A stretch of DNA of 64,000 nucleotides from Hypnocyclicus thermotrophus (GTDB lineage: Bacteria; Fusobacteriota; Fusobacteriia; Fusobacteriales; Fusobacteriaceae). Both the position numbers and the translations under genes were made by a program. Every line of letters begins with the position of its first letter. Positions within the stretch are counted from its first letter, which is position 1. Positions 975 to 28,349 of the stretch are shown here, piece by piece. Location: assembly GCF_004365575.1 (NCBI RefSeq), contig NZ_SOBG01000003.1:196997-260996 (forward strand). Direction: 5' to 3'. Below the pieces are notes generated by a model. The model saw only the letters and a program-made list of their open reading frames with translations, was not told the origin of the DNA and did no database searches.

Positions 975-987
975 AGGTCATTCCTCC

Positions 988-5778: not shown

Positions 5779-5781
5779 AAC

Positions 5782-11248: not shown

Positions 11249-11369
11249 AGAAAAAGCCCTGCAGGAATTTCTCCCACAAGGCTTATATCAATTCTTTTTT
11301 GCTGATTATACTATATCGTAAATGTAAGGTGCTTATCTCTGCTCAAAACTGCTTATTTCGATGCAACTT

Positions 11370-13666: not shown

Positions 13667-13851
13667 CTTTGGACGATTTTCCTATACGCGCGCATACATA
13701 CATATGCACACGCTATTTACCTTTTATTTTTAATTAATTATTAAGTAGGTAAATTCTTGTTCCTGTTATTCCTCAAAAGCCAAAGTATCGATATTTCCTA
13801 TGTTTTTAAGAAAACAACATCGGAAACAACCTAAGAACAAGTGAACTACCG

Positions 13852-16209: not shown

Positions 16210-16721
16210 AGAGTATCTACCTCCGCAAACTTGCTGTTAAAATACCTGACCTTTTGTTTTCGACTTTTTGCTTTATTAATTTCGATGCTCATACCGTTAG
16301 ATATTACATCTCCAAGTACCCATACCTCTTGGCATTTACCCATAAGGATAATATCCATGAAAATGGCAAGGTCACGTTCTTTCGCATCAGCATCATTCAT
16401 AAATTGTGGAAACATGAGATGAGGTGCTAGAGGAATATTTCCATTCTCTAATGCAAAACGGCAAAATTCCTGAGTTCGTTTGATGTTGCATTTGGTATTG
16501 CCACTAAAAGGGGAGCAAATGTACACCAATGGACGGAAAGCAGGTTTTAACGCTGCTTTCTCTTCCTTTACAATATTGGTTATTGCTTCATATGGAGTAG
16601 GGTCATGATATCTTTCAGCATTAAATTTATTTATGTTCATCATAACCACCTCCGTCTCTAATTTTTTTACTACATTCATTACAATATATTGCAGTACCAA
16701 ATAAATCACTTTCACCATCAC
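16206..16721 (-). CDS. DUF4406-like (nucleoside 2-deoxyribosyltransferase-like fold) protein
   Basis: The pattern VYICSPFSG...PLAPHLMFPQ...ERDLAIFMDIILMGKCQEVWVLG matches this fold. The probable start is the internal MMNINKF. Confidence 0.5.
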   Translation of the reverse strand: MMVKVIYLVLQYIVMNVVKKLETEVVMMNINKFNAERYHDPTPYEAITNIVKEEKAALKPAFRPLVYICSPFSGNTKCNIKRTQEFCRFALENGNIPLAPHLMFPQFMNDADAKERDLAIFMDIILMGKCQEVWVLGDVISNGMSIEINKAKSRKQKVRYFNSKFAEVDTL

Positions 16722-16899
16722 CTAAGATTTCTCCAATATCAACCATTACTTCAGCACCACACATTGGGCAGTGACAAAAAACATTCTCATCAGTTATTTC
16801 AATGGATATCTCCATAGAATCATTCAATCTTTCCTTCACATAAAACATAGTAAAACCCCTCCTTAATTTTTGTTTTCTTCCATCTTCAACTTGTACCAT
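16627..16899 (-). CDS. small zinc-ribbon protein
   Basis: It has C-x2-C ... C-x2-C pairs (CHCPMCG, CNECSKK). The likely start is the internal MFYVKE. Confidence 0.35.
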   Translation of the reverse strand: MVQVEDGRKQKLRRGFTMFYVKERLNDSMEISIEITDENVFCHCPMCGAEVMVDIGEILGDGESDLFGTAIYCNECSKKIRDGGGYDEHK

Positions 16900-17615
16900 T
16901 CCAAATAACGCTTACGCTGCCCGTAATCTGGAATAGCTACTAATAAGCCAACATCTACTTTTTGTAATGTATCTAGCATTGTAATCTGCTCATCAGATAG
17001 ATAGGGGCGAATGCTTTTTCCTTTTTCAATGCCATTTGCTAGTCTAAACTGCTTTGCAGTCATTCCGATAACGATGCGATTTAACATATTACATTCATTA
17101 CTGAAGTGATATGGCTTAGGATTTTCATGAAGTAGCTTTATGTTTGAGGTCAACAATGGAAATTCTTGTCTTGCAGATACAAGGGTTTTAATGAAACTCT
17201 CCATCTCGTTGAACCTGCGAATGTAAAGTTCTTTGAACTTCATTGCTTTTTGCCCTGTGTATCCCATCACCAACATTGTAAAGCCGTCTCGTGTCATAAA
17301 ATAACAGGGTAGCTTTCTGCCTGTACTGTCCTTATAAAAATCAGATTTAAAATTAGAATGAATAAAATCTTCACTCAGCCCAGATTTGGGCTCAGTAATT
17401 CTTGCAATATCCCGCAGAACATGTTTGTGTTGTTTTTCAAAGAACTCTGCCACATATAAACTGTCTACTCTTGCAGTATCCTTTCTGTCGGCAAACACTC
17501 CGTATTGATCTTTAGGTATTAATTCTCTCATCAGAATTACCTCCTTAAATTTTATTTGGAGGATTGACCTCCTACCTAGTAGCCTTGGGAGAAGGTCAAA
17601 TCTGACATTTTTCAA
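16863..17615 (-). CDS. Rha-family phage regulatory protein (antirepressor-like)
   Basis: The N-terminal block VDSLYVAEFFEKQHKHVLRDI is the Rha signature. The probable start is at MRELIPK. Confidence 0.65.
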   Translation of the reverse strand: MKNVRFDLLPRLLGRRSILQIKFKEVILMRELIPKDQYGVFADRKDTARVDSLYVAEFFEKQHKHVLRDIARITEPKSGLSEDFIHSNFKSDFYKDSTGRKLPCYFMTRDGFTMLVMGYTGQKAMKFKELYIRRFNEMESFIKTLVSARQEFPLLTSNIKLLHENPKPYHFSNECNMLNRIVIGMTAKQFRLANGIEKGKSIRPYLSDEQITMLDTLQKVDVGLLVAIPDYGQRKRYLEWYKLKMEENKN

Positions 17616-18144
17616 AAATTTCTTTTAATTTTTTCTCTGCGCGTTTTAGTTTTTTTGTAATGTTATTTTCATTTACACCTAAGCTCTTGGCATATTCTCT
17701 TATAGGAGTTCCATCGATTCTTACTGCAATAAAGATGTCTGCCCATTCCTGTTTTTTACCAAGAGCAGAACGTATTTTTTGACATACATCCTCATATTCA
17801 TATTGGTGATTACGTTCAATTTCTTGTGTATCGTCTGCAATGGTATCCATTACGTCAGTTTCATCCTCAGATTCATCATCCTTGCGGTAGGGAGTCTTTG
17901 GATTGCCAAGATGTCTATGATATCTACGCCAGTGGTTGTATTCTTTACTGTTCATGAGGTCAAACATTTCCTGTACAGTCTCACAACGCTTTACTTCTGC
18001 CTTCTTTTCTGGCTTTGCCTCTGCAAGACGTTGCTCATAGTCAATATCTAGCATGACACTGTAATCATTATCTGGAATTTCAATTGTGGTGTAGAACTTG
18101 TGACCGTTTTTGATGTTGTCTTCATATAAAACTCGAATCTTCAT
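17596..18144 (-). CDS. sigma-70 region-4-like / ECF-sigma-like phage protein
   Basis: The C-terminal segment IFIAVRIDGTPIREYAKSLGVNENNITKKLKRAEKKLKE is a sigma region-4-type HTH. A GGAAAGGAA RBS precedes the ATG. Confidence 0.45.
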   Translation of the reverse strand: MKIRVLYEDNIKNGHKFYTTIEIPDNDYSVMLDIDYEQRLAEAKPEKKAEVKRCETVQEMFDLMNSKEYNHWRRYHRHLGNPKTPYRKDDESEDETDVMDTIADDTQEIERNHQYEYEDVCQKIRSALGKKQEWADIFIAVRIDGTPIREYAKSLGVNENNITKKLKRAEKKLKEIFEKCQI

Positions 18145-18549: not shown

Positions 18550-20433
18550 TTATACTGCAATATTATGGTCATGTAAAAAGTCAAATATTGATTCCATAGA
18601 TTGCTTTGATAGGTGAGTCAATGCAAAATCATACCATATATGTTCTTGTTTACAAAAGTTTAAAGTGCAAGGCGATTTATCAATAATATGCTTACTGATG
18701 TTGGGTGGTAAATGTAATCCTAGACAAATTAATACCAACGTATTTATAGAAGGATCACGTTTACCATTCGCAATTCTGCTAATTGTCTGGTCATCAACCA
18801 TAATTTTCTTTTCTAACTCCTTATACGTAATTCCACGCCATTTTAACACAACTTTCAATGATTCACAAAAATCATTTGGCAAAGACTTATATACTCTCAT
18901 TTCATCCATAACAACATCTTCTACTAATTTGATTTGTTTATCATGGTCAGCATATGCATAACCATCACCATATACGATATTAAAACTTACTGTTGAATCC
19001 TTATCCTTATTGAGAAAACATACACTATGATAATCCTTTTTAGTTCCAGACTTGACTGTCATGTCAAAAACAAGACAGCATTCTTCCATATGATTACGAG
19101 CGTAATCAGTTAATATAGTAAATTCATTATCATCTTGGGTTAAATATTTAGGATGATTAAATACGAAATGTGCATCAACATATTGATAACTACCATCCCC
19201 AACAAGTCTAGATAATTTTTGATTTGTTATGCTCTGTATAGCTGCCTCTTCTGCACTAATAGAAAAAGTCTGATGTTCTTTTAATATGCCCTTTTTAAAA
19301 CGATGTGTAGCAACATATCTTCCATCAATATATGTAAATGTGCCTATTGCTTCCTCAAATCCAGCATCTACCATTCGAATTTTTGCTGCAGTACGAGATA
19401 CACAGAAAAAGGTTGATAATGCATCTATAACAGGTTCAATAACATCAATAATATCAAACTTCCCAGTTGATTCTCGAAATTGTTTAATAAATTTCCATGC
19501 CTGAGTTTTGAACATACCCATTGGCATTTGGATTCTCGGAGCAAGTGCATTTGCCTGCCATTCCATCCATTCTGTCGCGTCTCTACTATTGCCAGCAACA
19601 CCACCAATAGCTTGGCACTTAATTCTACTAGCTTCACTATTGTACAAACGCTCAAGTTCAAAAGCCTTTCGATGTTTATCCCAATGAACACACTCATGGA
19701 TGATGGTATTATTAACTTTACCTAGGTTATACAAAAAATAAGTTTCAGGGTCAACAAATATGGTTTTTTCATTTACATCTACTGACACTAATTCATCTGA
19801 GTCTTTATCATAAAACTCAGATGTACTATTATGAAAAAATATTTGGCCAAAAACAGAGCAATCCTTTGTGATATTCCTTACTTCAATATTCAAGCCCATT
19901 CCCTTAGCAAGTTCCATTGGATCAACTGGCATGGGTTGTAACAATGCTTTAGGATAATAATCCTTTAAAAACTGTGTTGCTATCTCTTCTAGCTGATTTT
20001 TATAAATAATTGGCACAAGAGCATCTGACATAGGTTTGGGTTGTTTATTTTTGTTGGTATACTCAGCTACACTTAAAATTGCAAAGTCATTTAAATTACA
20101 CTCCAGATTTCCAGAACATTTCAGCGTAAACCACTGACTACAATATTCCGATTCATCATAATGATAATCTGCCTCACGAACTTCCAGTTCAACCCCAACA
20201 ACGACATCAAATTCTATTTCCATATCTGGTAAATCACTAACAGATACAAACTTTACTTCTATATCTGATAATTCTATACCACCTATCTTTCTAACTCTAT
20301 ATAGCTGTAAATCCAAATTATTATAATTATCCGTGGCATAACTCTGTATAGCAGCATACATTTCATTTTCGAACCTATCTGCCACATAATCCCTAAAAGA
20401 ACGATTACCCGCCATTACAACAACCCCCTCCAA
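18550..20433 (-). CDS. ImmA/IrrE-family HEXXH metallopeptidase domain protein with C-terminal XRE-type HTH (627 aa)
   Basis: The peptidase motif IIHECVHWDKH is preceded by an ImmA-like N-lobe (PVDPMELAKGMGLNIEV...IFVDP). The C-terminal HTH reads ITYKELEKKIMVDDQTISRIANGKRDPSINTLVLIC. The gene is divergent from the plus-strand operon. Confidence 0.7.
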   Translation of the reverse strand: MEGVVVMAGNRSFRDYVADRFENEMYAAIQSYATDNYNNLDLQLYRVRKIGGIELSDIEVKFVSVSDLPDMEIEFDVVVGVELEVREADYHYDESEYCSQWFTLKCSGNLECNLNDFAILSVAEYTNKNKQPKPMSDALVPIIYKNQLEEIATQFLKDYYPKALLQPMPVDPMELAKGMGLNIEVRNITKDCSVFGQIFFHNSTSEFYDKDSDELVSVDVNEKTIFVDPETYFLYNLGKVNNTIIHECVHWDKHRKAFELERLYNSEASRIKCQAIGGVAGNSRDATEWMEWQANALAPRIQMPMGMFKTQAWKFIKQFRESTGKFDIIDVIEPVIDALSTFFCVSRTAAKIRMVDAGFEEAIGTFTYIDGRYVATHRFKKGILKEHQTFSISAEEAAIQSITNQKLSRLVGDGSYQYVDAHFVFNHPKYLTQDDNEFTILTDYARNHMEECCLVFDMTVKSGTKKDYHSVCFLNKDKDSTVSFNIVYGDGYAYADHDKQIKLVEDVVMDEMRVYKSLPNDFCESLKVVLKWRGITYKELEKKIMVDDQTISRIANGKRDPSINTLVLICLGLHLPPNISKHIIDKSPCTLNFCKQEHIWYDFALTHLSKQSMESIFDFLHDHNIAV

Positions 20434-20585
20434 CAGGCAATATAATAAAATATATTTTTCTGACTTTTAACTTTCTTACATTTTTTACATATCCCTTTGG
20501 ATAATATTGTAACACTCAAAAATAGATGTTTCAATCGTTTTAACTAAATATTCTTGTTATCACAACAATTTTCATGCAATATACA

Positions 20586-20614
20586 TTGTTTTTTACACTT
20601 CCAAATGATATAAT
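20586..20614 (+). promoter_or_regulatory. candidate sigma-70 promoter for the plus-strand HTH/ASCH/methyltransferase operon
   Basis: TTGTTT-N17-TATAAT, followed by short inverted repeats (TTGTT ATCAC AACAA upstream). Confidence 0.35.
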
Positions 20615-20682
20615 TTTAAAAGCGACAAATTATTTAGTCGTTATTATTCAAAGTTTTATATTTTATTGAGAGGTGGAAATAG

Positions 20683-20898
20683 ATGCCTATAAGTTACAAA
20701 AAATTATGGAAATTACTTATTGACAAAGATATGAAAAAAAAAGACTTACAGATTGCTGCTGGAATAAGCTCTTCTTCCATCACGAAAATGGCAAAAAATC
20801 AGAATGTAAACACTGAAACGTTAACTAAAGTTTGCAAAGCACTTGACTGTGATATTTCTGATATAGTTGAGATTGTAAATGACAAACCTCCTAACTAA
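20683..20898 (+). CDS. XRE-family HTH transcriptional regulator (71 aa)
   Basis: An HTH_3/HTH_26-like sequence (KKKDLQIAAGISSSSITKMAKNQNVNTETLTKVCKALDCDISDIV). A GAGGTGG RBS precedes the start. Confidence 0.7.
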   Translation: MPISYKKLWKLLIDKDMKKKDLQIAAGISSSSITKMAKNQNVNTETLTKVCKALDCDISDIVEIVNDKPPN

Positions 20899-21167
20899 TC
20901 TTATCTAAGTTTTTTATTTTACTTAATAGCATATTACTTTCAACTAATTATATATCTTTCACAATGATGTAAAGTTTAAAAAGTTGTTACACTATTTAAA
21001 TTATTGAAAGTAAGTTTGCAAACTGATTATATTTTATAAAGATTGTCAATTCCAATTAGCACAAGATGATACTGTAAATATATTGCTTAAATCATACAAG
21101 CCATCAGATTGTAATCAAAAAAAATATATTATAACAATGATAAAAATCAGGAGGTAAAACCGATACA

Positions 21168-21635
21168 ATGACACCAATAATGAGTTTTTGGCCAAGCATT
21201 TATGAAAAGATTTTAAACCAAATTAAATTAATTGAATACCGTAGGACTTTTCCAAAAGACTGCAAATTCGCTTATATGTATGTTAGTAAACCGGTAAAAG
21301 CAGTTTGTGGAATTTTATATTTTGGTGAAAAACATACGCTTTCAGATTGGAAAGAAAAATATTCTAATAGTTTTGAGATTTCTACTAGAATTGATGAGTA
21401 TCTCAAGAATTACAGATATGGCATGGAAATTAAGGGTTTTCAAAAGGTTTATCCCATAACTTTAGATGACTTGCGAAAAAATGTCCCTGGATTTGTTGCC
21501 CCTCAATCATATTTACTACTAGAAAATAATAAAAATCTTGCAGAATACTTAGAAAGAAATCTTGTTCTTGTTGGTGAAAAAATTGAAAATGACTTTTCAA
21601 ATGCCTATCCAGAGCATGTTTGTAAGAGGTATTAA
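21168..21635 (+). CDS. ASCH-domain (PUA-like) protein
   Basis: The ASCH signature K-x2-E-x-R is present in NQIKLIEYRR (K20, E23, R25), followed by a YMYVSKPVKAVCGILYFGE beta-barrel-like block. An AGGAGG RBS precedes the start. The stop lies 3 nt before the methyltransferase start. Confidence 0.55.
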   Translation: MTPIMSFWPSIYEKILNQIKLIEYRRTFPKDCKFAYMYVSKPVKAVCGILYFGEKHTLSDWKEKYSNSFEISTRIDEYLKNYRYGMEIKGFQKVYPITLDDLRKNVPGFVAPQSYLLLENNKNLAEYLERNLVLVGEKIENDFSNAYPEHVCKRY

Positions 21636-21638
21636 ATA

Positions 21639-22724
21639 ATGTTAAAAGTATTTGAAGCGTTTGCTGGATATGGAAGTCAACGTCTAGCCCTAAAAAATGC
21701 AAACATACCTCATGAGATTGTTGGTATATCAGAAATCGATGGTGATGTAATTCGTTCATATGCTGCAATCCATGAAAATTTATTGGAAGAAAGAAAAAAG
21801 GAATTATTGATTTCAGATGAGCAAATGCTTAATTTTCTAGAAAAAATCAATGTTCCACTCGATTATAAGACTTTTAAAAACAAAGCAAAGAATTTAAAGG
21901 GTCAAAAGTTAAAAGACATGTATCTTGCTAATAAACTTAGTAAAAATTTTGGGGATATTCGTACAATTAACCCCGATAAATTACCGGACTTTGATTTTTT
22001 TACATACTCATTTCCTTGCCAAGATATTTCTATTGCTGGTTATCAAAATGGATTAGATGCAGACTCAGGGACTCGCTCTTCACTTCTTTGGGAATGCTGC
22101 AAAATTATTGAAAAAAAGAGGCCGAAATATTTAATGATGGAAAACGTAAAAAACCTAATCGGTAAAAATCACATAAAAAACTTTGAAGAATTCTTACTCT
22201 ATTTAAAAAGATTAGGATATAAAAACTATTGGGATGTATTAAACGCTCGTGATTATGGAATTCCTCAAAATAGAGAAAGAGTATTTTGTATCAGTATTCT
22301 TGATAGCCATGAAGAATTCACGTTTCCACCAATCAGAGAACTATCTATTTTTATGAACGATCTATTAGAAGATGATGTCCCCATTAATTTTTATTTAAAA
22401 AATAATCAAGTAAGTGATGAACCTATTAGTCAAGATTATATTTATTGCCTAGATTCAAATTATTGGAAAGGTACATTTTTAAAAGATTTTCGTACTAAAA
22501 AAAGACGACAATTAGTATCAGGACCCGTTCGGGATGATGGAAAATATCCAGCAAGGCGACTAACCCCTAGAGAAACTTGGCGATTTATGGGAGTTAATGA
22601 TGCCGATTTTGATAAGGCTAGTAAATTAGTAAGTAACACAAGTCTATACAGACAAGCTGGAAATAGCATTGTAGTTCCAGTCTTAGAAGCAATATATAAA
22701 AAATTATTTTTACATAAGGAGTGA
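21639..22724 (+). CDS. DNA (cytosine-5)-methyltransferase
   Basis: Motif I FEAFAGYGSQ, motif IV SFPCQD, motif VI ENVKNL and motif VIII GIPQNRERVF are present. An ~80-aa insertion lies between motifs I and IV. Confidence 0.9.
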   Translation: MLKVFEAFAGYGSQRLALKNANIPHEIVGISEIDGDVIRSYAAIHENLLEERKKELLISDEQMLNFLEKINVPLDYKTFKNKAKNLKGQKLKDMYLANKLSKNFGDIRTINPDKLPDFDFFTYSFPCQDISIAGYQNGLDADSGTRSSLLWECCKIIEKKRPKYLMMENVKNLIGKNHIKNFEEFLLYLKRLGYKNYWDVLNARDYGIPQNRERVFCISILDSHEEFTFPPIRELSIFMNDLLEDDVPINFYLKNNQVSDEPISQDYIYCLDSNYWKGTFLKDFRTKKRRQLVSGPVRDDGKYPARRLTPRETWRFMGVNDADFDKASKLVSNTSLYRQAGNSIVVPVLEAIYKKLFLHKE

Positions 22725-22730
22725 AAAAAT

Positions 22731-23540
22731 ATGACTAACAAAGAACGAATCATTCAATTATTTTATGCTAATGTAAAAGGAAGACGCCCAGACACAACAG
22801 GCTCAAACATTCATCATGATGGTAGAGAAGGTCATTGGTTAGAACGCCAATTCGGAATAAGTGCCAACGCATCAAACGAAGCTGATTTATTTGGATATGA
22901 ATTAAAAAATGAAACCACAAGTAAGACTACTTTTGGTGATTGGTCTGCAAACAGATATATTTTTAAAACTGGTGAATATGTGCATTGTTTTGATGGCAAC
23001 ACTGCCTCTGATCGCCAAGATAGTTTTTGTAGGATATTTGGTAAACCAAACCCACTTAAAGGTGGTAGATACTCTTGGTCTGGGAGCCCATGCCCAACTA
23101 TTCATGGTTATAATAATTTTGGACAGGTACTTATAATAGATAATAATAAAGACATTATTGCCATATATTCTTATAGCCAAGATAAGCGTATAAACAAATC
23201 ACAAGTCGTTCCCGTTGAATTACGACAAGACAATTTAGAAATAGCTAGATGGTTTGGAGAATATTCGCCAACTTCTAAACGAACCGACAAATGTCTTCAG
23301 GCCAAATTGGAAGATAAATTTAATCATGAGGGTTGGTTTACTTGTAAAAAAGGTCTAGATGGAACATATCAAAAAATTTGTTTCGGAGAGCCTATAACCT
23401 ATGATAATTGGTTGAACTTAGTCAAAAAAGGTATTGTGTTTTTTGATAGCGGAATGTACCAAGGAAATAAAAGACCATATTCACAATGGAGAGCTAATAA
23501 TTCATTTTGGGATAGTTTAATTATAGAATGTTATGAATAA
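22731..23540 (+). CDS. MutH/Sau3AI-family PD-(D/E)XK endonuclease, single domain (269 aa)
   Basis: EGHWLERQFGISANASNEADLFGYELK aligns with the MutH block [26 protein letters not shown]. The catalytic D52, E57 and K59 are retained. Confidence 0.6.
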   Translation: MTNKERIIQLFYANVKGRRPDTTGSNIHHDGREGHWLERQFGISANASNEADLFGYELKNETTSKTTFGDWSANRYIFKTGEYVHCFDGNTASDRQDSFCRIFGKPNPLKGGRYSWSGSPCPTIHGYNNFGQVLIIDNNKDIIAIYSYSQDKRINKSQVVPVELRQDNLEIARWFGEYSPTSKRTDKCLQAKLEDKFNHEGWFTCKKGLDGTYQKICFGEPITYDNWLNLVKKGIVFFDSGMYQGNKRPYSQWRANNSFWDSLIIECYE

Positions 23541-23554
23541 CAAGGAGGTATATC

Positions 23555-25105
23555 ATGTTTAAGCTAACTAATGAAATTAAAATAGTCATTAACCATATAC
23601 CTTTACCATGGATTCCAAAAATTGAATTATATTATCCTGATTTGCCACAATTCCCCATTATTTATATCAATACATATGTTAATAAACAGCGAATTCTTGC
23701 TTGCCCAGTTGCTGTAAGTTACCAAATAGAAGAGAATTCTTGCAATGCCATATTCACTGTTTTAACTAATGTAGAATCAAATGAACTCACTAATGAAAAA
23801 ATTAAATTAGAGCTATCTGAGCGTATTGGATATTCAGAAAAAATATCAAAATCAGATGTTATTGAATGTTGCAATGGGAACGAACAATATATAGCTTTAT
23901 TCACAGATCTTTGGGAGTACATTCAATTTTCATATGGGGAATTTGTTCCCTATGGTAAGTTCTACGAGGAGATTTTTTCAATTATTCGCTTTGTCGCTGC
24001 ATGGCAACCTAAAACCGGAAGACAAAGTGAAATGCGTATGCTATATAATTTCATGAGTGCTTTTGGTGAAAAAGTTGTAATGCCAAAAAAATGGAGTCAT
24101 CTAGAGTTTTATGCTATTCCTAACTTATACGATGTATCAAATAGTTGTTTTCTTCAATTTCCAAAATTTTCAACACTTAAGTCTGCAATGAACAAATTAT
24201 TTGATGAATATTTTATTAAAAATATTAATATTAATGGCATAGAATTTAAAGTGATGGAGCATGCGTGGAAGCAAAACAAAGATAGCTTTATATCAAATGT
24301 AACCGATCCTATGTTTTCTAGAGGGATATTATCTGAAGAAGAAAAACTTTATGCTGAAACGTTAGTTGATGCTTTTAATCGTCATGCATGGAGAGCAGCA
24401 TATTTCATAAGTGCTTTTATGAATATTAAAAATAACTACAGTATGTGGACAAAAAAATTTTTTATGGATTTTTATAAGAATGGAAATAAATTAAAAGGAT
24501 ATTCTGAAAAAGTAATTGCTTGTTTTTTACAACAAGGATTTCTTAATCCTGAAGTAATACCAATTGATACTTGGGTAAAAACTTTCTATGAATTTCCATT
24601 AGGGATTAATACTAACACCCAGTTTTTCAATGAATTTTCAAACCTAGGAAAATTAGAACGAATTATTTGGCTTTCCAGTCAATCAAACAAGACCAATATG
24701 AAAACTTTCTTTGATATTCTTTGGTGTCAGCGGTATGGAACAATTGGAAATGGAGAACTAAGAGGTATTAATCCTATTGCTTGTTACAGTTGCCAACTTA
24801 AAAATAGCTGTGTTGGTGTAGCAAAAAAAAGATTTACTAATGTTAAGCTATTAAACAACTCTTCAAATTCTGAAGAAAATTTATCTGCAATTTTTGAATA
24901 TAACCCTGAAATAACTTATATTTGTATTTTATATAACGGTGTTCCAAAGAAATGCTATGTTAGAAAAAAAGGCATAGCAACTCTGATAGACGAATTTAGC
25001 GGATATATATTAACAGCGCAAAACAAACTATCTGATGATTTATTACATAAAGGTACTATAACTTTTGAAGAATTTATTTTTTCCAAAAATAAAAACCATG
25101 AATAA
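23555..25105 (+). CDS. 516-aa protein with Endonuclease-III-like HhH-GPD glycosylase signature and Cys cluster
   Basis: GYSEK(319)VIACFLQQGFLNPEVIPID(338)TW parallels the Nth block GVGRK(120)TANVVL...VD(138)THV. Cysteines 391, 410, 413 and 419 give C-x18-C-x2-C-x5-C, and the Asp-to-first-Cys spacing is like Nth. Large N- and C-terminal extensions are unassigned. Confidence 0.5.
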   Translation: MFKLTNEIKIVINHIPLPWIPKIELYYPDLPQFPIIYINTYVNKQRILACPVAVSYQIEENSCNAIFTVLTNVESNELTNEKIKLELSERIGYSEKISKSDVIECCNGNEQYIALFTDLWEYIQFSYGEFVPYGKFYEEIFSIIRFVAAWQPKTGRQSEMRMLYNFMSAFGEKVVMPKKWSHLEFYAIPNLYDVSNSCFLQFPKFSTLKSAMNKLFDEYFIKNININGIEFKVMEHAWKQNKDSFISNVTDPMFSRGILSEEEKLYAETLVDAFNRHAWRAAYFISAFMNIKNNYSMWTKKFFMDFYKNGNKLKGYSEKVIACFLQQGFLNPEVIPIDTWVKTFYEFPLGINTNTQFFNEFSNLGKLERIIWLSSQSNKTNMKTFFDILWCQRYGTIGNGELRGINPIACYSCQLKNSCVGVAKKRFTNVKLLNNSSNSEENLSAIFEYNPEITYICILYNGVPKKCYVRKKGIATLIDEFSGYILTAQNKLSDDLLHKGTITFEEFIFSKNKNHE

Positions 25106-25155
25106 AAAAAAGCATCACCCGCATTGGATACAACCATCTGCGAGTGATGTTTTTC
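25106..25155. terminator. bidirectional terminator between convergent genes
   Basis: An A-run, then the hairpin CATCACCCGCA...TGCGAGTGATG, then TTTTTCTTAT. Confidence 0.45.
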
Positions 25156-26340
25156 TTATAAAATCCTATATTGACCTAAATAATCAAGCATGCTTTTAGC
25201 AACTGCATCAATAACGTTAATACATACTGAATTACCAAACTGCTTATAAGCTTGAGAATTTGAAACAGCAATAATAAATTCTTCAGGAAAGCCTTGTAAT
25301 CTAGCACATTCTCGTGGGGTTAACATTCTAGGATTCTTCCCATTTTGCTCAATTAATGCTTCGCTTCCATCCTTATAATATCTTGCACTAATGGTGCTCG
25401 TATACTTGCTGTTTGAATTAAACAAACAAAAACCAAATCCATTTCCTTTCTTTTTATGTGCTTTCTTTCTTTCTAAGTGACCTTGATACAATTTGTCTGA
25501 TATTGTAAATCTATCAGGTACTTCCTTTTCTAAAATCATTCCTACATTAACACTGTCATCCACGTAACCCTTTGGATATTTAAACTTCACAAAATCAGCC
25601 GGTAGGTAATCTTTATTGAATCCAACAATAATAATACGTTCTCTATTTTGAGGTACCCCAAAGTGGTAAGCGTTCAATACTTCCGGTTCAGGTACGTAAT
25701 AATTTAGTTCATTGAGAATCGAAAGAATTACTTTCAAAGTTCTTCCTTTATCATGGCCACGTAATTGTTTCACATTTTCAAGCATAAATGCTTTTGGTCG
25801 TTTTTCCCTTAAAATTTTAGCAATATTAAAGAATAATGTACCACGCGCATCTTCAAATCCTTTTTTTAACCCCGCTTGAGAAAATGGTTGGCACGGAAAT
25901 CCTGCCAACAAAATATCATGATCTGGAATATCTTTTTCGTCAATTTGCGTAATATCTCCTGCGGGCATTTCACCATAATTTATCCTATAAGTTTTTTGAG
26001 CAAATTTATCCCATTCTGATGAAAATACTGTTCGACCGCCATGGCGCTGAAAACCTAGTCTAATACCACCAATTCCGGCAAACAAATCTATCTGAGTAAA
26101 TCTACTATTTTCTATGCTTGGTGCAACAAAAGGAGGCTCTGTGGGAAAGGCTAATATTTTCTTATAAACCTCATCTGGAACTTCCTTCTTGTCAGTTTCC
26201 CAAAACTTTAATTCTTTTTCTTCTTCTTTGCTTAAACCAAGAGCATCTGAAAATTCCTTACGAGTAACATCTATTTTTTTTCTAATATTTGTTATAATTT
26301 GACCTTTTGTCAATTCAATACTCACGCTAGTGTTAGTCAT
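25156..26340 (-). CDS. DNA (cytosine-5)-methyltransferase with N-terminal HTH extension
   Basis: Motif I DLFAGIGG, motif IV GFPCQPFS, motif VI ENVKQL and motif VIII GVPQNRERIII are present. The first ~90 aa are HTH-like, as in autoregulatory C5-methyltransferases. Confidence 0.9.
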   Translation of the reverse strand: MTNTSVSIELTKGQIITNIRKKIDVTRKEFSDALGLSKEEEKELKFWETDKKEVPDEVYKKILAFPTEPPFVAPSIENSRFTQIDLFAGIGGIRLGFQRHGGRTVFSSEWDKFAQKTYRINYGEMPAGDITQIDEKDIPDHDILLAGFPCQPFSQAGLKKGFEDARGTLFFNIAKILREKRPKAFMLENVKQLRGHDKGRTLKVILSILNELNYYVPEPEVLNAYHFGVPQNRERIIIVGFNKDYLPADFVKFKYPKGYVDDSVNVGMILEKEVPDRFTISDKLYQGHLERKKAHKKKGNGFGFCLFNSNSKYTSTISARYYKDGSEALIEQNGKNPRMLTPRECARLQGFPEEFIIAVSNSQAYKQFGNSVCINVIDAVAKSMLDYLGQYRIL

Positions 26341-26573
26341 TATTTTATTTCTTCTCCTTCTCCTTTTTTACAATCATCTATGTATAACAATTCTGCTACC
26401 TCACAATCAAAGAGCGAACATAATTTTTCAATGGTTTTATAATTAATCCTAGTAGCCTTATCATTATACAGATTAGAAACTGTCGTTCTAGAAAGTTTAG
26501 TTCTCTCGTGTACTTCTTGTATTGAAAATCTATGTTCTCCCATCAAAGTTGATAACCTGCAATGAAGTTTCAT
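26340..26573 (-). CDS. small XRE-type HTH protein (controller-like)
   Basis: The HTH reads FSIQEVHERTKLSRTTVSNLYNDKATRINYKTIEKLCSLFDC. The probable start is an internal ATG with an AGGAGGAG RBS; the ORF track gives 26340..26678. The stop overlaps the methyltransferase start. Confidence 0.6.
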   Translation of the reverse strand: MKLHCRLSTLMGEHRFSIQEVHERTKLSRTTVSNLYNDKATRINYKTIEKLCSLFDCEVAELLYIDDCKKGEGEEIK

Positions 26574-26996
26574 AATCTCCTCCTTGATAACCAAAATCAT
26601 ATTCATTTTAACATTAATGTTGGTTAAATTCAAGGATATATCATGATAATTAATTATCCCCAAAAAGACTATAATCAAAATTTTTACATGGTAAAAGTCA
26701 GTAAATAAATAACATCTGAAATTTATAACTCGAAAAAGCTATTTATTTATCAGCATTTTTACTCTTAATCATTCAATCAATACAAGCAGTATATCAAAGT
26801 TAATTATATTTTGATTTAAATACATCTATCCTGTCTTCTCAACCTACCCAAAAGCAATCCTGTCCACTCAACTATGCCACTTTTTCACAGTGGATATATT
26901 CCCACAAAGCACTCATTTAACAAGGGGTTATGCCATTCTGCAAATCAGCAAAATACACAGAACCCTTTATTTCCTACACTTTCAAGCTTTCTATTT

Positions 26997-28349
26997 CTAC
27001 ACCCTTGACATCAATACCACCGTCTCCACATGGCTTGTTTGCGGAAACATATCTACAATAGATAGATTCATTAGTTTATATCCATTTTCTACTAATATTC
27101 CTATATCTCTTGCAAGTGTAGAAGGATTGCAAGAGATATATACTAATTCATTTATATTTTTATCTATTACTTCTTGCAAAGAATTTTTGTCTATTCCTTT
27201 TCTTGGTGGATCAAAAATTATAGAGTCTATTTTTTCATCACTATTTAATAATTTTGTTAACCCATTTTCTACAGTATCATTTATAAAAGTAATATTTGAT
27301 ATATTATTTTCTTTTGCTGTTTTTTCAGCATCTTTTGAAGATGATTCAGCTAATTCTATAGAAAATATTTTTTTTGCTTGTTTAGATAATATCATTCCTA
27401 TTGTTCCAGTTCCAGAATATGCATCTACAATATTTTTATTATTTATATTATTAAAATATGAAATTGCTAATTCATATAATTTTTTTGTTTGTTCTATATT
27501 TATTTGAAAAAAAGATGTAGGCGATATATTAAAATTTATATCAAATAAATTTTCTTTTATTGTTTCTTCTCCATATAACAAAATATTTTTATTTCCAAGT
27601 GCAAAATTTGTTTTATTATTATTAATTGAAATATATATAGAAATTACATTTTTATATTTATTATAAGTATCTTTTAGTATTTTTTTTAACTCTTTTATAA
27701 TGTTTCCTTTTATAATTACTACAAGCATTATTTCACCATTAGAATTTACTCTTGCCATTAAATTTCTTAACATACCTTTATGTTTTCTTTCATCATAAAT
27801 AGTTAGTTTTTTTTCAGAAAATCTATTTTTTAAATACGTAAAAATTTTATTAATTTCTTTTGGTTGTAGGTAATTATCTTTTACTTCAAATATTTCATGT
27901 GATCTCCTTTTATAAAATCCAGATATTACTTTTCCATTTCTATATCCAATTTGTTCTATCACCTTATTTCTATAATTAAATATTGTGTTAGCTAAAAGTA
28001 CTTTGTCAAATTGAATATTATCAATTTTCGCAATTCTAGAAAACACCTCTTTTACCATTTCTTTTTTATATTCAATTTGTTTTTCATAGTTTATCATTGC
28101 AAAATCACAACCATGATAATCTTCAAAACTTATTTTTTCACTACTTACTCTATCTATTGAAGGCTTTATTACTTTTTTTATAAGTCCTCTTGCATAAGTT
28201 TTTTTATTTGAAATTATCTCCACTTTCAATTTATCTCCTGGAACAGACATTGGCACAAAAATTGCAATATCATTATAATATCCTAGTCCTTCTCCGCCAA
28301 AAACTATTTTATCAATACTTACCTCTATCAAATCTCCTATTTTCAGCAT
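26997..28349 (-). CDS. 23S rRNA (uracil-5)-methyltransferase RlmD/RumA family (TRAM + class I MTase)
   Basis: An N-terminal TRAM-like domain and the C-terminal motif DMFPQTSHVETVVLM are present. Confidence 0.85.
   Translation of the reverse strand: MLKIGDLIEVSIDKIVFGGEGLGYYNDIAIFVPMSVPGDKLKVEIISNKKTYARGLIKKVIKPSIDRVSSEKISFEDYHGCDFAMINYEKQIEYKKEMVKEVFSRIAKIDNIQFDKVLLANTIFNYRNKVIEQIGYRNGKVISGFYKRRSHEIFEVKDNYLQPKEINKIFTYLKNRFSEKKLTIYDERKHKGMLRNLMARVNSNGEIMLVVIIKGNIIKELKKILKDTYNKYKNVISIYISINNNKTNFALGNKNILLYGEETIKENLFDINFNISPTSFFQINIEQTKKLYELAISYFNNINNKNIVDAYSGTGTIGMILSKQAKKIFSIELAESSSKDAEKTAKENNISNITFINDTVENGLTKLLNSDEKIDSIIFDPPRKGIDKNSLQEVIDKNINELVYISCNPSTLARDIGILVENGYKLMNLSIVDMFPQTSHVETVVLMSRV

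What the first reader, a model, noticed from the sequence alone, without database searches (positions are those of the whole stretch)
18550..26678. Lower-GC island at the prophage/chromosome junction with an ASCH, C5-methyltransferase, MutH-like nuclease and HhH-GPD glycosylase operon under a divergent ImmA-HTH regulator
Eight genes sit between the prophage arm and rlmD, in DNA of visibly different composition from both flanks. A 627-aa ImmA/IrrE-HEXXH peptidase with a C-terminal HTH is divergent from a tightly spaced plus-strand operon, with gaps of 3 to 14 nt. The operon is XRE-HTH, ASCH-domain protein, C5-cytosine methyltransferase, MutH/Sau3AI-family endonuclease, and a 516-aa protein with an Endonuclease-III-type HhH-GPD signature. 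A convergent HTH-fused C5-methyltransferase and a small HTH controller follow. I do not recognise this combination as a described system. Several readings are possible. It could be a Sau3AI-like type II restriction-modification (R-M) system carrying a Mig/Vsr-like repair module for 5mC deamination, by analogy to Mig.MthI next to M.MthTI and to vsr next to dcm. It could be a novel restriction system in which a glycosylase creates abasic sites that the nickase converts into breaks. It could be a 5mC-directed excision system. The peptidase-HTH architecture resembles the DNA-damage-responsive regulators of some defence operons (CapH/CapP-like logic), here fused into one protein.
Basis: partly seen in the sequence, partly recalled or inferred. 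Interest (0 to 1): 0.85.

Follow-up and report, generated by a model that had tools for sequence, protein, structure and literature searches.

The report
CCNGG restriction cassette with unrecognised glycosylase
A prophage carries an ordinary-looking CCNGG restriction-modification cassette that also encodes a never-described OGG1/AlkA-like DNA glycosylase, and this enzyme turns out to be a regular fourth partner of such cytosine-methylating systems across bacteria and archaea, although its exact job is still open.

Summary
The eight ORFs exist as described. The interpretation needs correcting.

- **Context:** the "island" is the terminal cargo of a Φm46.1-like prophage integrated in the 3' end of rlmD. 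The 627-aa HExxH-peptidase/HTH protein is phage backbone (phrog_4031), not a regulator of the operon.
- **Core system:** a LlaMI/ScrFI-type (CCNGG) restriction-modification system, not Sau3AI-type. It comprises ASCH, C5-MTase M1, the R.LlaMI-family nuclease, and a convergent Dcm/SsoII-type C5-MTase M2.
- **Distribution:** X is in 18 of 33 well-flanked LlaMI-type loci. It lies next to a Dcm-type MTase in 51 of 53 X loci, in five or more gene orders, and also beside EcoRII-type systems.
- **Not a Vsr substitute:** Vsr is adjacent in 12/53 X+ loci against 3/15 X− loci.
- **Specific link:** X is flanked by DCTPP1-like or Nudix dNTP pyrophosphohydrolases (16/53 against 0/15).

Best reading (about 0.4): a glycosylase/lyase policing by-products of cytosine-5 methylation. 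Rivals: a restriction glycosylase, or an anti-modified-phage glycosylase.

The parts
1..18144 (-). Prophage backbone (context): capsid 988-2199, portal+protease 2200-3819, TerL 3837-5339, two phage MTases 6944-10055, SNF2-type helicase 12016-13419, primase 13852-16209, Rha-like regulator 16863-17615, sigma-like 17596-18144
   Evidence: PHROG hits, E from 1e-30 to 0. Synteny with S. suis phage phi-SsuFJNP8_rum. Helicase 54% identical to that phage.
18550..20433 (-). 627-aa HExxH (ImmA/IrrE-like) peptidase fused to a C-terminal XRE HTH. Phage backbone gene and probable lysogeny switch, not part of the R-M module.
   Evidence: phrog_4031 full length, E=7.5e-188. 58 phage records. HExxH and HTH invariant. 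HTH_3. Weak CapP hit. Present next to the cassette in only 1/53 other loci.
20683..20898 (+). 71-aa XRE/HTH_26 protein, controller-like. Homologs sit directly upstream of X-R or ASCH-M1-R-X operons elsewhere.
   Evidence: Pfam HTH_26, E=3e-19. Homologs in 8/53 X+ loci and 0/15 X- loci. In L004 the gap to X is 54 nt.
21168..21635 (+). 155-aa ASCH-domain protein, an optional accessory that travels with the methyltransferases
   Evidence: PDB 5GUQ/5GUS ZmASCH, E=1.7e-7. PADLOC PDC-M11B, E=5e-11. In 22/53 X+ and 3/15 X- loci. Family of 153 'hypothetical' proteins.
21639..22724 (+). M1, 361-aa C5-cytosine methyltransferase. Lacks the Dcm-type TRD motif. Fused to R in some relatives.
   Evidence: PF00145, E=3e-78. 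PADLOC MTase_II PDLC03388, 680 bits. M1-R fusions in L005/L011/L022/L124. No ARY[YW]KDG motif.
22731..23540 (+). R, 269-aa LlaMI/ScrFI-family type II restriction endonuclease. The family prototype cuts CC^NGG. Distantly MvaI/BcnI-like.
   Evidence: PF09562 RE_LlaMI, E=1.8e-74, 251 bits against a cut-off of 25. PF15515 MvaI_BcnI, E=6e-8. PADLOC REase_II, 400 bits.
23555..25105 (+). X, 516-aa new-family HhH-GPD glycosylase with OGG1/AlkA architecture. Candidate catalytic K319 and D338. Invariant C391, C410, C413, C419. Extra C-terminal domain (about 429-510).
25105..25157 (.). Inverted repeat (19-nt arms, 84% complementary) between the convergent X and M2 genes. Probable bidirectional terminator.
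   Evidence: the repeat finder. The function is inferred.
25156..26340 (-). M2, 394-aa C5-cytosine methyltransferase of Dcm/EcoRII/SsoII type with an ~80-aa N-terminal extension (possible HTH)
   Evidence: PF00145, E=2e-106, residues 81-384. TRD motif ARYYKDGSE. N-terminal HTH only E=0.01-0.04. M.SsoII precedent (PMC3978073).
26340..26678 (-). Small XRE HTH upstream of, and overlapping, M2. The listed 112-aa ORF starts at TTG. The real start is probably an internal ATG (e.g. Met36, about 26573), giving about 77 aa.
   Evidence: HTH_26, E=6e-17. Homologs are 84-94 aa in L001-L003.
26679..27045 (.). Prophage end and attachment region, overlapping the 3' end of rlmD (rlmD CDS 26997-28349, minus strand)
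   Evidence: GC falls from about 0.30 to 0.22 at about 27000. The rlmD 3' end ...CATGTGGAGAC... resembles the Φm46.1 attB GCATCACGTGGAGTGTGT in rum (PMC4288039). rlmD also flanks the cassette in L002, L062 and L121.

Best explanation
SHOWN WITH HIGH CONFIDENCE (about 0.85)
- The locus is the terminal cargo of a Φm46.1-like, rlmD-integrating prophage in Hypnocyclicus thermotrophus.
- The cargo is a LlaMI/ScrFI-type CCNGG restriction-modification system. It has ASCH-M1-R-X in one operon behind a controller-like HTH, and a convergent HTH-M2 operon.
- X is a new family of OGG1/AlkA-architecture HhH-GPD enzymes. It has a conserved Lys/Asp pair at the positions of the OGG1 nucleophile and catalytic aspartate, and a four-cysteine metal site.
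- X is a recurrent, dispensable fourth component of CC(N/W)GG cytosine-5 R-M systems in bacteria and archaea. It is always next to a Dcm/SsoII-type methyltransferase.

INFERRED MECHANISM (about 0.4; this is the confidence figure given for this explanation)
- X is a bifunctional base-excision enzyme. The target base is flipped into the HhH-GPD pocket. K319 attacks C1' to form a Schiff base, assisted by D338, and beta-elimination nicks the strand.
- Its role is to police collateral products of cytosine-5 methylation other than the T:G mismatch that Vsr or Mig handles.
- The most likely substrate is a 5-substituted or damaged cytosine outside correctly methylated C(5mC)NGG sites. Such bases could come from mis-incorporated 5-methyl-dCTP or from off-target methylation.
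- In many relatives X works as the DNA-level partner of an adjacent dNTP sanitiser (DCTPP1-like MazG or MutT/NudG-like Nudix). This follows the same pool-plus-DNA logic as MutT/OGG1 or Dut/Ung.
- In this window the sanitiser and Vsr are absent, so X would act alone.
For: Fold and active site
- K319, D338 and four Cys are invariant in 33 sequences; they are conserved in distant lineages.
- hhalign places K319 on K249, C323 on C253 and D338 on D268.

Obligate link to C5 methylation
- 51/53 X loci have a Dcm-type-TRD MTase within 4 kb, and the other two are cut by contig ends.
- distant lineages are also flanked by PF00145 MTases.
- the gene order varies (at least five arrangement classes) while the linkage persists.

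Not the Vsr function
- Vsr adjacent in 12/53 X+ against 3/15 X- loci, Fisher p=1.0.
- Vsr calls validated by Pfam.
- a canonical MutY/Nth-like HhH-GPD gene lies in the same operon as X in L111 and L118.

Link to dNTP sanitisers
- Nudix or MazG in 16/53 X+ against 0/15 X- loci (p=0.015). 14 are directly adjacent to X, and the Nudix-X gap is 9-11 nt.
- the MazG-like neighbour is a DCTPP1 homolog, E=7e-25.
- the Nudix neighbour is MutT/NudG-like.
- PMC4491611: DCTPP1 prefers 5-methyl-dCTP.

Background
- bioRxiv 10.64898/2026.01.24.701492: C5-MTases impose genotoxic side-effects beyond deamination.

Dispensability
- L032 lacks X, and L046/L047 keep only a 66-aa remnant with intact R, M1, M2 and Vsr.
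Against: - No biochemical datum exists for any family member, so the substrate is inferred only from neighbours.
- X is usually co-transcribed with the nuclease, and in several loci it sits directly behind a controller-type HTH (L043, L065, L004, L111). That is how toxic restriction genes are arranged, not repair genes.
- Repair glycosylases for alkylated bases and for T:G or U:G mismatches are monofunctional. The invariant Lys would fit a strand-breaking effector equally well.
- The fitness benefit of removing ectopic 5mC is not obvious. X would also have to spare legitimately methylated CCNGG sites.
- X is restricted to Dcm-type systems, whereas a general methylation-damage enzyme might be expected with other C5-MTases too.
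- The pyrophosphohydrolase association involves related loci, giving about 5-6 independent events. The p-value therefore overstates independence.
- This window itself has no pyrophosphohydrolase.
Confidence: 0.4

Rival explanations
1. X is a restriction glycosylase/AP-lyase. It excises an unmethylated base, probably the inner cytosine, from CC(N/W)GG and nicks the strand. M2 (Dcm/SsoII-type) is its cognate protecting methylase. The cassette would then be two interleaved R-M pairs (M1+R and M2+X), and ScrFI-like M-R-M systems would be derivatives that lost X.
For: - X is never found without an adjacent Dcm-type MTase.
- X and M2 are convergent neighbours in most arrangements.
- M1-R fusions show that M1 pairs with R.
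- Some lineages look like M-V-(C)-X with no recognised nuclease in the module: L108-110 X-M-<Vsr, L111 M-Mig-HTH-X, and archaeal L015-17 Vsr-X-<M.
- Controller-type HTH directly upstream of X.
- The invariant Lys predicts strand cleavage.
- X is lost or pseudogenised while the MTase persists (L013, L046/47).
- Precedent: PabI-family base-excision restriction enzymes (PMC10273834).
Against: - 45/53 X loci already carry a conventional CCNGG nuclease, and others carry EcoRII-type nucleases. A second enzyme of the same specificity would be redundant.
- The specific adjacency of dNTP pyrophosphohydrolases to X is unexplained.
- The 'minimal' modules have unannotated or PD-(D/E)XK ORFs nearby that could be the real nuclease.
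- No natural glycosylase that removes unmodified cytosine is known (own knowledge).
Confidence: 0.25
2. X is a modification-dependent (type IV-like) antiviral glycosylase. It excises 5-substituted cytosines (5hmC, 5mC-rich or hypermodified C) from phage DNA that escapes the CCNGG nuclease. The neighbouring DCTPP1-like or Nudix enzyme destroys the phage's modified dCTP pool.
For: - HhH-superfamily and other glycosylases are now known antiviral effectors against modified phage DNA (Dag: bioRxiv 10.1101/2025.10.29.685425; Brig1: PMC11078745).
- Brig3 works with an ASCH protein, BapA, on modified cytosines (PMC13160076), and an ASCH gene is in this cassette.
- The pyrophosphohydrolases next to X act on 5-substituted dCTP (PMC4491611).
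- Nudix-X-R form one operon behind an HTH in L010, L012 and L089.
- C5 modification of the target cytosine would block CC(N/W)GG nucleases of either fold, which makes such an add-on a logical complement.
Against: - A modification-dependent effector needs no methyltransferase, yet X is never found away from a Dcm-type MTase.
- ASCH tracks the methyltransferases, not X, and also occurs in X-less loci.
- Host DNA itself carries 5mC at CCNGG, which X would have to ignore.
- X is a large multi-domain protein, unlike the compact Dag cassettes.
Confidence: 0.15
3. X is a Mig.MthI/Vsr-type repair enzyme that removes T (or U) from T:G or U:G mismatches created by deamination at methylated CCNGG sites.
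For: - Precedent of Mig.MthI next to M.MthTI, and of vsr next to dcm (own knowledge).
- Strict linkage to a C5-MTase.
- M-X overlap of 11 nt in L115-117, resembling dcm-vsr coupling.
Against: - There is no complementary distribution with Vsr: 12/53 against 3/15, p=1.0.
- A canonical MutY/Nth-like HhH-GPD gene is coupled to the MTase in the same operon as X (L111, L118).
- Known T:G glycosylases of this superfamily lack the Lys nucleophile that is invariant in X (own knowledge).
- The best structural matches are OGG1 and AlkA, not Mig or MutY.
Confidence: 0.08
4. X is an unrelated passenger gene, and the eight genes are just neighbours on a mobile element.
For: The island is prophage cargo, where unrelated genes accumulate.
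Against: The X-MTase-nuclease linkage persists across at least five gene orders, two REase folds, many bacterial phyla and archaea.
Confidence: 0.02

Closest known systems
ScrFI / LlaMI type II R-M systems of Lactococcus (CC^NGG; two m5C methylases flanking the nuclease, upstream orfX)
   Same: - R is a full-length PF09562 RE_LlaMI member.
- There are two C5-MTases, one with an N-terminal extension like M.ScrFIA/M.SsoII.
- A small ORF (here ASCH) sits upstream of the first methylase. The ScrFI gene order orfX-scrFIBM-scrFIR-scrFIAM is from my own memory of Butler & Fitzgerald 2001, a paper that is not held.
   Different: - A 516-aa glycosylase gene lies between R and the second methylase, and extra HTH genes are present.
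- To my knowledge ScrFI has no such gene.
- Whether ScrFI orfX is the ASCH protein could not be verified.
- The recognition sequence of this R is not tested.
Human/bacterial OGG1 and E. coli/archaeal AlkA (HhH-GPD glycosylases with an N-terminal TBP-like domain)
   Same: - The motif G-x-x-x-K-V-x-x-C ... P-x-D has the same K-to-D spacing (19) as OGG1 K249/D268.
   Different: - 9-12% sequence identity, and no Pfam HhH-GPD or OGG_N hit in any of 33 members.
- About 200 extra residues: an insertion and a C-terminal domain.
- A 4-Cys cluster reminiscent of the EndoIII/MutY Fe-S loop, which OGG1 and AlkA lack.
- Encoded in R-M operons rather than as a housekeeping gene.
Vsr (with Dcm) and Mig.MthI (with M.MthTI): repair enzymes attached to C5-methyltransferases
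   Same: - An accessory DNA-repair-type enzyme genetically tied to a C5-MTase.
- Mig is also HhH-GPD.
   Different: - X co-occurs with Vsr or with Mig-like genes instead of replacing them.
- X has the Lys nucleophile and OGG1/AlkA architecture.
- X is linked to dNTP pyrophosphohydrolases.
PabI-family restriction glycosylases (R.PabI, R.HpyAXII, R.CcoLI)
   Same: A base-excision enzyme with AP-lyase potential encoded inside an R-M system next to its methylase (PMC10273834).
   Different: - PabI enzymes have the HALFPIPE fold, act on GTAC and pair with an N6-adenine MTase.
- X is HhH-GPD and pairs with C5-MTases.
- A restriction role for X is not shown.
Antiviral glycosylases: Dag families (HhH), Brig1/Brig2 (UDG), Brig3+BapA (AAG fold + ASCH)
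   Same: - Divergent glycosylases, invisible to sequence searches, located in defence contexts.
- Brig3's partner BapA is an ASCH protein like the island's 155-aa gene (PMC13160076).
   Different: - Those are compact stand-alone effectors against modified phage bases with no methyltransferase partner.
- X is obligately MTase-linked and multi-domain.
- Here ASCH tracks the MTases, not X.
Plant ROS1/DEMETER 5mC glycosylase-lyases
   Same: HhH-GPD, a Lys/Asp bifunctional active site, a Cys metal cluster, large insertions, and a functional connection to 5mC.
   Different: - ROS1/DME are EndoIII-type without the OGG1/AlkA N-terminal domain.
- 5mC excision by X is speculative.
Φm46.1 / S. suis phi-Ssu*_rum prophage family
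   Same: - Integration at the 3' end of rum/rlmD, with accessory cargo at that end (PMC4288039).
- The same XRE / 627-628-aa protein / primase / helicase synteny.
   Different: - The host is a fusobacterium, with 38.5% GC phage in a 24% GC genome.
- The cargo is an R-M cassette instead of antibiotic-resistance genes.

Membership tests
HhH-GPD glycosylase superfamily | Two-domain all-alpha fold with a helix-hairpin-helix | tested here: met
   [not shown]
HhH-GPD glycosylase superfamily | Invariant catalytic Asp about 20 residues after the HhH hairpin | tested here: met
   D338 is invariant in 33 sequences. It aligns to OGG1 D268 and EndoIII D138. It is kept in distant lineages.
HhH-GPD glycosylase superfamily | Sequence-profile membership (Pfam PF00730) | tested here: not met
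   No hit in the window protein or any of 33 family members at E<=1. PDB profile search empty. hhalign to Nth E=0.39 and to OGG1 E=0.011.
HhH-GPD glycosylase superfamily | N-glycosylase activity on DNA | not testable with these tools
   No biochemical data exist for any member.
OGG1-type bifunctional glycosylase/lyase | Lys nucleophile in the HhH hairpin (K249) paired with Asp (D268) | tested here: met
   K319 is invariant with K-to-D spacing of 19. The register is supported by hhalign.
OGG1-type bifunctional glycosylase/lyase | N-terminal TBP-like beta-sheet domain | tested here: met
   About 245 residues align with OGG1 and AlkA, against about 170 with EndoIII-type enzymes. Strands at residues 6-71 are in the model.
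OGG1-type bifunctional glycosylase/lyase | 8-oxoG-specific pocket residues (G42, Q315, F319) | tested here: inconclusive
   The alignment diverges after the LW motif and no equivalents could be assigned.
EndoIII/MutY [4Fe-4S] cluster loop | C-x6-C-x2-C-x5-C near the C-terminus of the glycosylase domain | tested here: inconclusive
   X has C391-x18-C410-x2-C413-x5-C419, and all four are invariant. The last three match the motif but the first spacing differs. Distant members have C-x2-C-x7-C. The metal is unknown.
LlaMI/ScrFI restriction endonuclease family | Full-length match to PF09562 above the gathering score | tested here: met
   251 bits against a cut-off of 25, residues 18-267 of 269. PADLOC REase_II 400 bits.
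LlaMI/ScrFI restriction endonuclease family | Cleavage of CC^NGG | not testable with these tools
   Specificity is inferred from the family annotation only.
   Pfam returns only RE_LlaMI and a weak MvaI_BcnI match. That MvaI/BcnI share the MutH-like fold is my own knowledge, so 'MutH-like' holds at most at fold level.
SsoII/ScrFIA-type regulatory C5-methyltransferase | C5-MTase domain with a Dcm/EcoRII/SsoII-type target-recognition region | tested here: met
   PF00145, E=2e-106. Motif ARYYKDGSE is in M2 only. The assignment of this motif to the Dcm type is from memory.
SsoII/ScrFIA-type regulatory C5-methyltransferase | N-terminal HTH that binds its own promoter | tested here: inconclusive
   An 80-aa extension is present, but HTH_3 scores only E=0.04 and NCBIfam hits are 0.01-0.02. 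No operator was identified.
ASCH domain | Sequence similarity to characterised ASCH proteins | tested here: met
   ZmASCH 5GUQ/5GUS, E=1.7e-7 over residues 4-120. Pfam ASCH itself gave no hit.
ImmA/IrrE (M78) metallopeptidase | HExxH zinc motif plus a downstream Glu, conserved | tested here: met
   H245, E246, H249 and E290 are invariant in four homologs of 28-62% identity. PADLOC CapP, E=2e-6. There is no Pfam Peptidase_M78 hit.
CapH/CapP-like regulator of a defence operon | The regulator co-varies with the defence operon it controls | tested here: not met
   Found next to the cassette in 1/53 other loci. It is instead a conserved phage backbone gene (phrog_4031; 58 phage genomes).
Vsr/Mig functional analogue | Complementary (mutually exclusive) distribution with Vsr or Mig next to C5-MTases | tested here: not met
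   Vsr adjacent in 12/53 X+ against 3/15 X- loci, p=1.0. Vsr validated by Pfam. A Mig-like HhH-GPD gene lies in the same operon as X.
PabI-type restriction glycosylase | HALFPIPE fold | tested here: not met
   The X fold is HhH-GPD.
PabI-type restriction glycosylase | Methyl-inhibited base excision at the recognition site; toxic without the cognate MTase | not testable with these tools
   There is only indirect support: X is never seen without an MTase.
Φm46.1-like rum-integrating prophage | Integration at the 3' end of rum/rlmD, and backbone synteny | tested here: met
   rlmD abuts the cassette and GC breaks at about 27000. Synteny and 30-54% identity to phi-SsuFJNP8_rum proteins. The attL end and the integrase lie outside the window.

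The most novel reading that the evidence does not exclude
X is the first prokaryotic 5-methylcytosine (or 5-substituted-cytosine) DNA glycosylase/lyase, a functional analogue of plant ROS1/DEMETER. Together with a 5-methyl-dCTP pyrophosphatase it forms an 'epigenetic proofreading' pair that erases cytosine methylation wherever it was not written by the cognate CC(N/W)GG methylase. An equally novel alternative is that X is a second, HhH-GPD-fold family of base-excision restriction enzymes, which would also explain why ScrFI-type systems carry two methylases.
Probability: 0.2. Interest if true: 0.9.

Novelty: new variant of a known kind. Interest (0 to 1): 0.72.

Why it matters
CC(N/W)GG cytosine-5 R-M systems (ScrFI, LlaMI, SsoII, EcoRII, Dcm) have been studied for about 40 years and are treated as M+R(+Vsr). 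This analysis shows that more than half of the well-flanked LlaMI-type loci sampled, and some EcoRII-type loci, carry a conserved enzyme that no annotation library recognises. It spans Bacillota, Fusobacteriota, Veillonella, Melainabacteria, Alphaproteobacteria, methanogens and DPANN archaea.

Whatever its substrate, it is new biology:
- If it polices methylation by-products, it is a prokaryotic counterpart of the DNMT-ALKBH2 and DCTPP1 'cost of methylation' theme, and possibly a bacterial 5mC glycosylase.
- If it is a weapon, it is a second fold of restriction glycosylase, or an R-M-integrated anti-modification effector.

It also bears on practical matters. It may contribute to transformation barriers in gut anaerobes. 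It could become a tool enzyme for 5mC or modified-cytosine detection. It should be added to REBASE, PADLOC and DefenseFinder models. The hypotheses can be told apart with a handful of oligonucleotide assays.

Tried and rejected
- **Sequence methods on X:** Pfam, NCBIfam, PADLOC, PDB phmmer and a PDB profile search gave nothing. An exhaustive profile search of 1.8 billion representatives found only 168 family members and did not bridge to canonical HhH-GPD families.
- **AFDB50 fold search:** unavailable.
- **Sau3AI/MutH family for the nuclease:** rejected in favour of LlaMI.
- **ImmA-HTH as a CapH/CapP-like regulator of the operon:** rejected, because it is phage backbone.
- **X as a Vsr substitute:** rejected by the co-occurrence statistics.
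- **ScrFI orfX as the ASCH protein:** could not be verified. The paper is not held and no named homolog was found.
- **My recollection that the SpyI cassette of Φ10394.4 is LlaMI-like:** wrong. Its nuclease is LlaJI-like.
- **BapA analogy as support for X function:** weakened, because ASCH tracks the MTases rather than X.
- **Regex for the X catalytic block:** too strict, so I replaced it with phmmer labelling.
- **CCNGG site counts in the window:** phage 17 observed/24 expected, island 1/4.9, chromosome 17/7.9. These are uninformative.
- **Promoter and terminator scans:** at background level. No convincing operator palindrome was found for the HTH proteins.
- E. coli Vsr, Nth and human OGG1 were used only as probes. 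The Vsr calls were then validated with Pfam.

Full report
**1. Observation**

ASCH, M1, R and the 516-aa gene ("X") are separated by 3, 6 and 14 nt. The small XRE gene lies 269 nt upstream of ASCH and 249 nt from the divergent 627-aa gene. GC content is 38.5% in the phage arm, 31.4% in the island and 24.4% in the chromosome. The island therefore differs from both flanks but is intermediate, not the lowest. The 516-aa protein is 100% identical to a hypothetical protein of Hypnocyclicus thermotrophus.

**2. What the genes are**

- The 627-aa protein has a C-terminal HTH_3. Its HExxH motif is invariant in homologs of 28-62% identity, and PADLOC gives a weak CapP hit.
- The 71-aa and 112-aa ORFs are HTH_26 proteins. 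The second probably starts at an internal ATG, because its homologs are 84-94 aa.
- The 155-aa protein matches the solved Zymomonas ASCH protein (E=1.7e-7).
- M1 and M2 are C5-MTases.
- The nuclease is a full-length RE_LlaMI member (PF09562, E=1.8e-74) with a weak MvaI_BcnI match. It belongs to the ScrFI/LlaMI CC^NGG family, not Sau3AI.
- M2 carries the target-recognition motif ARYYKDGSE, which I recall from Dcm/EcoRII/SsoII methylases. M1 does not carry it.
- M2's 80-residue N-terminal extension is only weakly HTH-like (E=0.01-0.04). The related M.SsoII uses such a region to regulate transcription (PMC3978073).

**3. The island is prophage cargo, and the ImmA-HTH protein is phage backbone**

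- Window 1-18.1 kb encodes capsid, portal/protease, terminase, two phage MTases, helicase, primase, a Rha-like regulator and a sigma-like protein.
- The 627-aa protein is a full-length member of phrog_4031 (E=7.5e-188). It occurs in 58 deposited phage genomes, 38 of them streptococcal, including phi-Ssu*_rum phages of S. suis.
- In phi-SsuFJNP8_rum the order is cargo (resistance genes, transposases), a divergent XRE gene, the 628-aa gene, then primase and helicase. This is the same layout as in the window.
- Φm46.1-type phages integrate at the 3' end of rum (= rlmD), a known hotspot, with attB GCATCACGTGGAGTGTGT (PMC4288039).
- The window's rlmD ends with ...CATGTGGAGAC..., and GC drops to chromosomal level there.
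- An rlmD gene or fragment also flanks the cassette in L002, L062 and the provirus L121.
- The same eight genes, at 62-91% identity, sit in a 57-kb provirus of Alkalihalobacillus trypoxylicola.
- Outside these closest relatives the 627-aa gene never accompanies the cassette (1 of 53 loci).

The CapH/CapP-like "regulator of the operon" reading is therefore not supported.

**4. The 516-aa protein is a glycosylase-fold enzyme of a new family**

- No member of the family hits any Pfam model, and PDB sequence and profile searches are empty.
- Word-based and exhaustive searches find only about 300 proteins, or 168 representatives, all unnamed.
- An alignment of 33 members (A1) gave an AlphaFold model with mean pLDDT 90.5 and pTM 0.88.
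- The top 50 Foldseek hits against the PDB are all OGG1 (probability 1.0).
- X therefore has the OGG1/AlkA architecture: an N-terminal beta domain plus HhH-GPD.
- The invariant block G315-Y-S-E-K319-V-I-A-C323...P336-I-D338 aligns with hOGG1 G245...K249...C253...D268, with identical K-to-D spacing. It also aligns with EndoIII K120/D138.
- Four cysteines (C391, C410, C413, C419) are invariant. The last three have the EndoIII/MutY C-x2-C-x5-C spacing.
- Lys, Asp and the Cys cluster persist in the most divergent lineages.

I infer a bifunctional glycosylase/beta-lyase with a metal cluster. This is not shown.

**5. X is a recurrent component of CC(N/W)GG cytosine-5 R-M systems**

- A scan of 185,579 species genomes found 25 loci. 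They come from Bacillota, Veillonella, Streptococcus, Spirochaetes, Alphaproteobacteria, Melainabacteria, Methanobrevibacter and DPANN archaea.
- A metagenome scan seeded with the nuclease gave 80 more loci.
- Among 33 nuclease-selected loci with at least 3 kb on both sides, 18 (55%) have an intact X.
- Of 53 X loci, 45 have the LlaMI-type nuclease, 50 an M2-type MTase, 42 an M1-type MTase and 22 an ASCH gene.
- 51 of 53 X loci have an MTase with the Dcm-type motif within 4 kb, and the other two are cut by contig ends.
- Gene order varies. The arrangements include:
  - [HTH] ASCH M1 R X> <M2
  - [<Vsr][HTH] X R> <[ASCH] M2 M1
  - M1 R M2> <X
  - ASCH orf X M1 R> <M2
  - R X> <M1 M2>
- Divergent X lineages sit in the following contexts:
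  - X-M-<Vsr
  - M-(MutY/Nth-like HhH-GPD)-HTH-X
  - beside EcoRII-C or full EcoRII with Vsr and an HTH-MTase
  - M-X overlapping by 11 nt opposite a LlaMI-type nuclease
  - MazG-like ... <M | HhH-GPD-X
- X is dispensable. L032 lacks it, L046/47 retain a 66-aa remnant with everything else intact, and in L013 X and M1 are fragmented while M2 and Vsr are intact.
- X is absent from 50,697 deposited phage genomes and present on one plasmid. It occurs on seven IMG/VR proviral contigs.

**6. Tests of function**

(a) Vsr displacement. If X did the Vsr/Mig job, the two should be complementary. They are not. Vsr is adjacent in 12/53 X+ loci and 3/15 X- loci (Fisher p=1.0; Vsr confirmed by Pfam). In addition, a canonical Fe-S MutY/Nth-like glycosylase is coupled to the MTase in the same operon as X in L111 and L118.

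(b) Neighbours specific to X. Nudix or MazG genes lie within 1.5 kb of the module in 16/53 X+ loci and 0/15 X- loci (p=0.015). Of these, 14 are directly adjacent to X, with Nudix-X gaps of 9-11 nt.
- The MazG-like neighbour is a DCTPP1/RS21-C6 homolog (E=7e-25).
- The Nudix neighbour is MutT/NudG-like.
- DCTPP1 prefers 5-methyl-dCTP and controls its incorporation (PMC4491611).
- The loci are partly related, so I count about 5-6 independent associations. They involve two unrelated folds.

(c) Regulation. Controller-type HTH genes sit directly upstream of X (L043, L065, L004, L111), and HTH genes occur in 13/53 X+ loci against 0/15 X- loci. X is usually in the nuclease's operon, whereas ASCH travels with the methylases.

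(d) ASCH. It occurs with and without X (22/53 against 3/15). The Brig3/BapA precedent, in which an ASCH protein de-glucosylates glc-5hmC for a 5hmC glycosylase (PMC13160076), is suggestive for ASCH itself. It does not inform on X.

**7. Mechanism**

Three readings survive, and each fails to explain one line of evidence.

- **Methylation hygiene.** X excises a 5-substituted or damaged cytosine that exists only because the cell methylates cytosine, and it is paired with a dNTP sanitiser as in MutT/OGG1 or Dut/Ung. This is the only reading that explains both strongest facts: the obligate MTase linkage and the pyrophosphohydrolase linkage. It also fits the independence from Vsr. It does not explain the restriction-like regulation, and the selective benefit is unclear. 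I commit to this reading at about 0.4.
- **Restriction glycosylase.** X would attack unmethylated CC(N/W)GG (about 0.25). This explains the linkage, the regulation, the Lys and the M-V-C-X modules. It would also neatly explain ScrFI's second methylase. It does not explain the pyrophosphohydrolases, nor the redundancy with a conventional nuclease in 45/53 loci.
- **Type-IV-like anti-modified-cytosine effector.** This reading (about 0.15) explains the pyrophosphohydrolases and follows recent precedents (Dag, Brig1-3). It does not explain why X is never found away from a methylase.

The Mig/Vsr-like reading is about 0.08.

**8. Comparison with known systems, and novelty**

The R-M core is an ordinary ScrFI/LlaMI-type system on a known kind of prophage. 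The only known restriction glycosylases are the HALFPIPE PabI family (PMC10273834). The known HhH defence glycosylases (Dag) are compact integron cassettes against 7-deazaguanine phages (bioRxiv 10.1101/2025.10.29.685425). I found no description of an OGG1/AlkA-like enzyme integrated in C5 R-M systems. However, the library lacks most subscription-journal papers, and REBASE could not be consulted. I class the finding as a new variant of a known kind: an R-M system with an uncharacterised, widely conserved base-excision component.

**9. Limits**

- No coordinates of the model were accessible, so pocket geometry and Cys clustering were not inspected.
- Specificities of R, M1 and M2 are inferred from family membership and a remembered motif.
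- Locus sets are small, at roughly 70 informative loci, and phylogenetically clustered.
- The prophage's other end lies outside the window.

Noticed in passing
window 1-27040 versus 27040-64000: A 38.5% GC Φm46.1-like prophage sits in a 24% GC fusobacterial chromosome. Its closest relatives are in Bacillota (Alkalihalobacillus provirus; Oscillospiraceae, Ruminococcus and Streptococcus phages). This suggests recent cross-phylum acquisition through the conserved rlmD attachment site.
   Followed up: partly
window 6944-8818 (-) and 8805-10055 (-): The phage backbone carries two further methyltransferases. One is a 624-aa C5-MTase-containing protein (phrog_116/phrog_38038). The other is a ParB-like/MTase fusion (phrog_498). 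The prophage therefore encodes four DNA methylases in total.
   Followed up: no
window 2200-3819 (-): A single 539-aa ORF combines a portal protein (residues 1-367) and a head-maturation protease (residues 363-536) according to PHROG hits. This is either a fusion or a missed frameshift or stop.
   Followed up: no
L005, L011, L022 (about 6090-7990) and L124: M1 and the LlaMI-type nuclease are fused into one 631-637-aa ORF in several relatives. This would be a single-chain C5-MTase/CCNGG-nuclease.
   Followed up: partly
L111:1361-3023 and L118:3554-4240; also L007, L014, L099-L101: Canonical HhH-GPD glycosylases lie next to Dcm-type MTases. In L111 the gene is MutY/Nth-like with a C-x6-C-x2-C-x5-C Fe-S motif and overlaps the MTase gene by 25 nt. 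In the Bacillus-type loci (L007, L014) the gene is AlkA-like. The L111-type genes look like Mig.MthI-style Vsr analogues in bacteria.
   Followed up: partly
L013:8001-9416 and L096: Decaying copies of the system. In a Methanobrevibacter MAG, X and M1 are fragmented while M2 and Vsr are intact. In L096, all of X, R, M1 and M2 are in pieces.
   Followed up: no
L108:1-6617: In one divergent lineage the X-MTase-Vsr module lies directly downstream of MZB (DUF1998-type), PLD-nuclease and 1025-aa genes, which is a defence-island context.
   Followed up: no
window 18462-18538: Two strong back-to-back terminator-like hairpins (18-bp and 10-bp stems) separate the 3' end of the 627-aa gene from the rest of the phage early region.
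   Followed up: no
window 26890-27507 (+): The listed 205-aa ORF is antisense to rlmD and the att region, and is almost certainly spurious.
   Followed up: no
L017:7498-7998 and L025/L050:7523-7954: Unannotated small genes are wedged next to X. One is 166 aa with a weak DUF6998 hit, overlapping the X start in a DPANN archaeon. The other is a 143-aa protein between ASCH and X in class-D loci. Their function is unknown.
   Followed up: no
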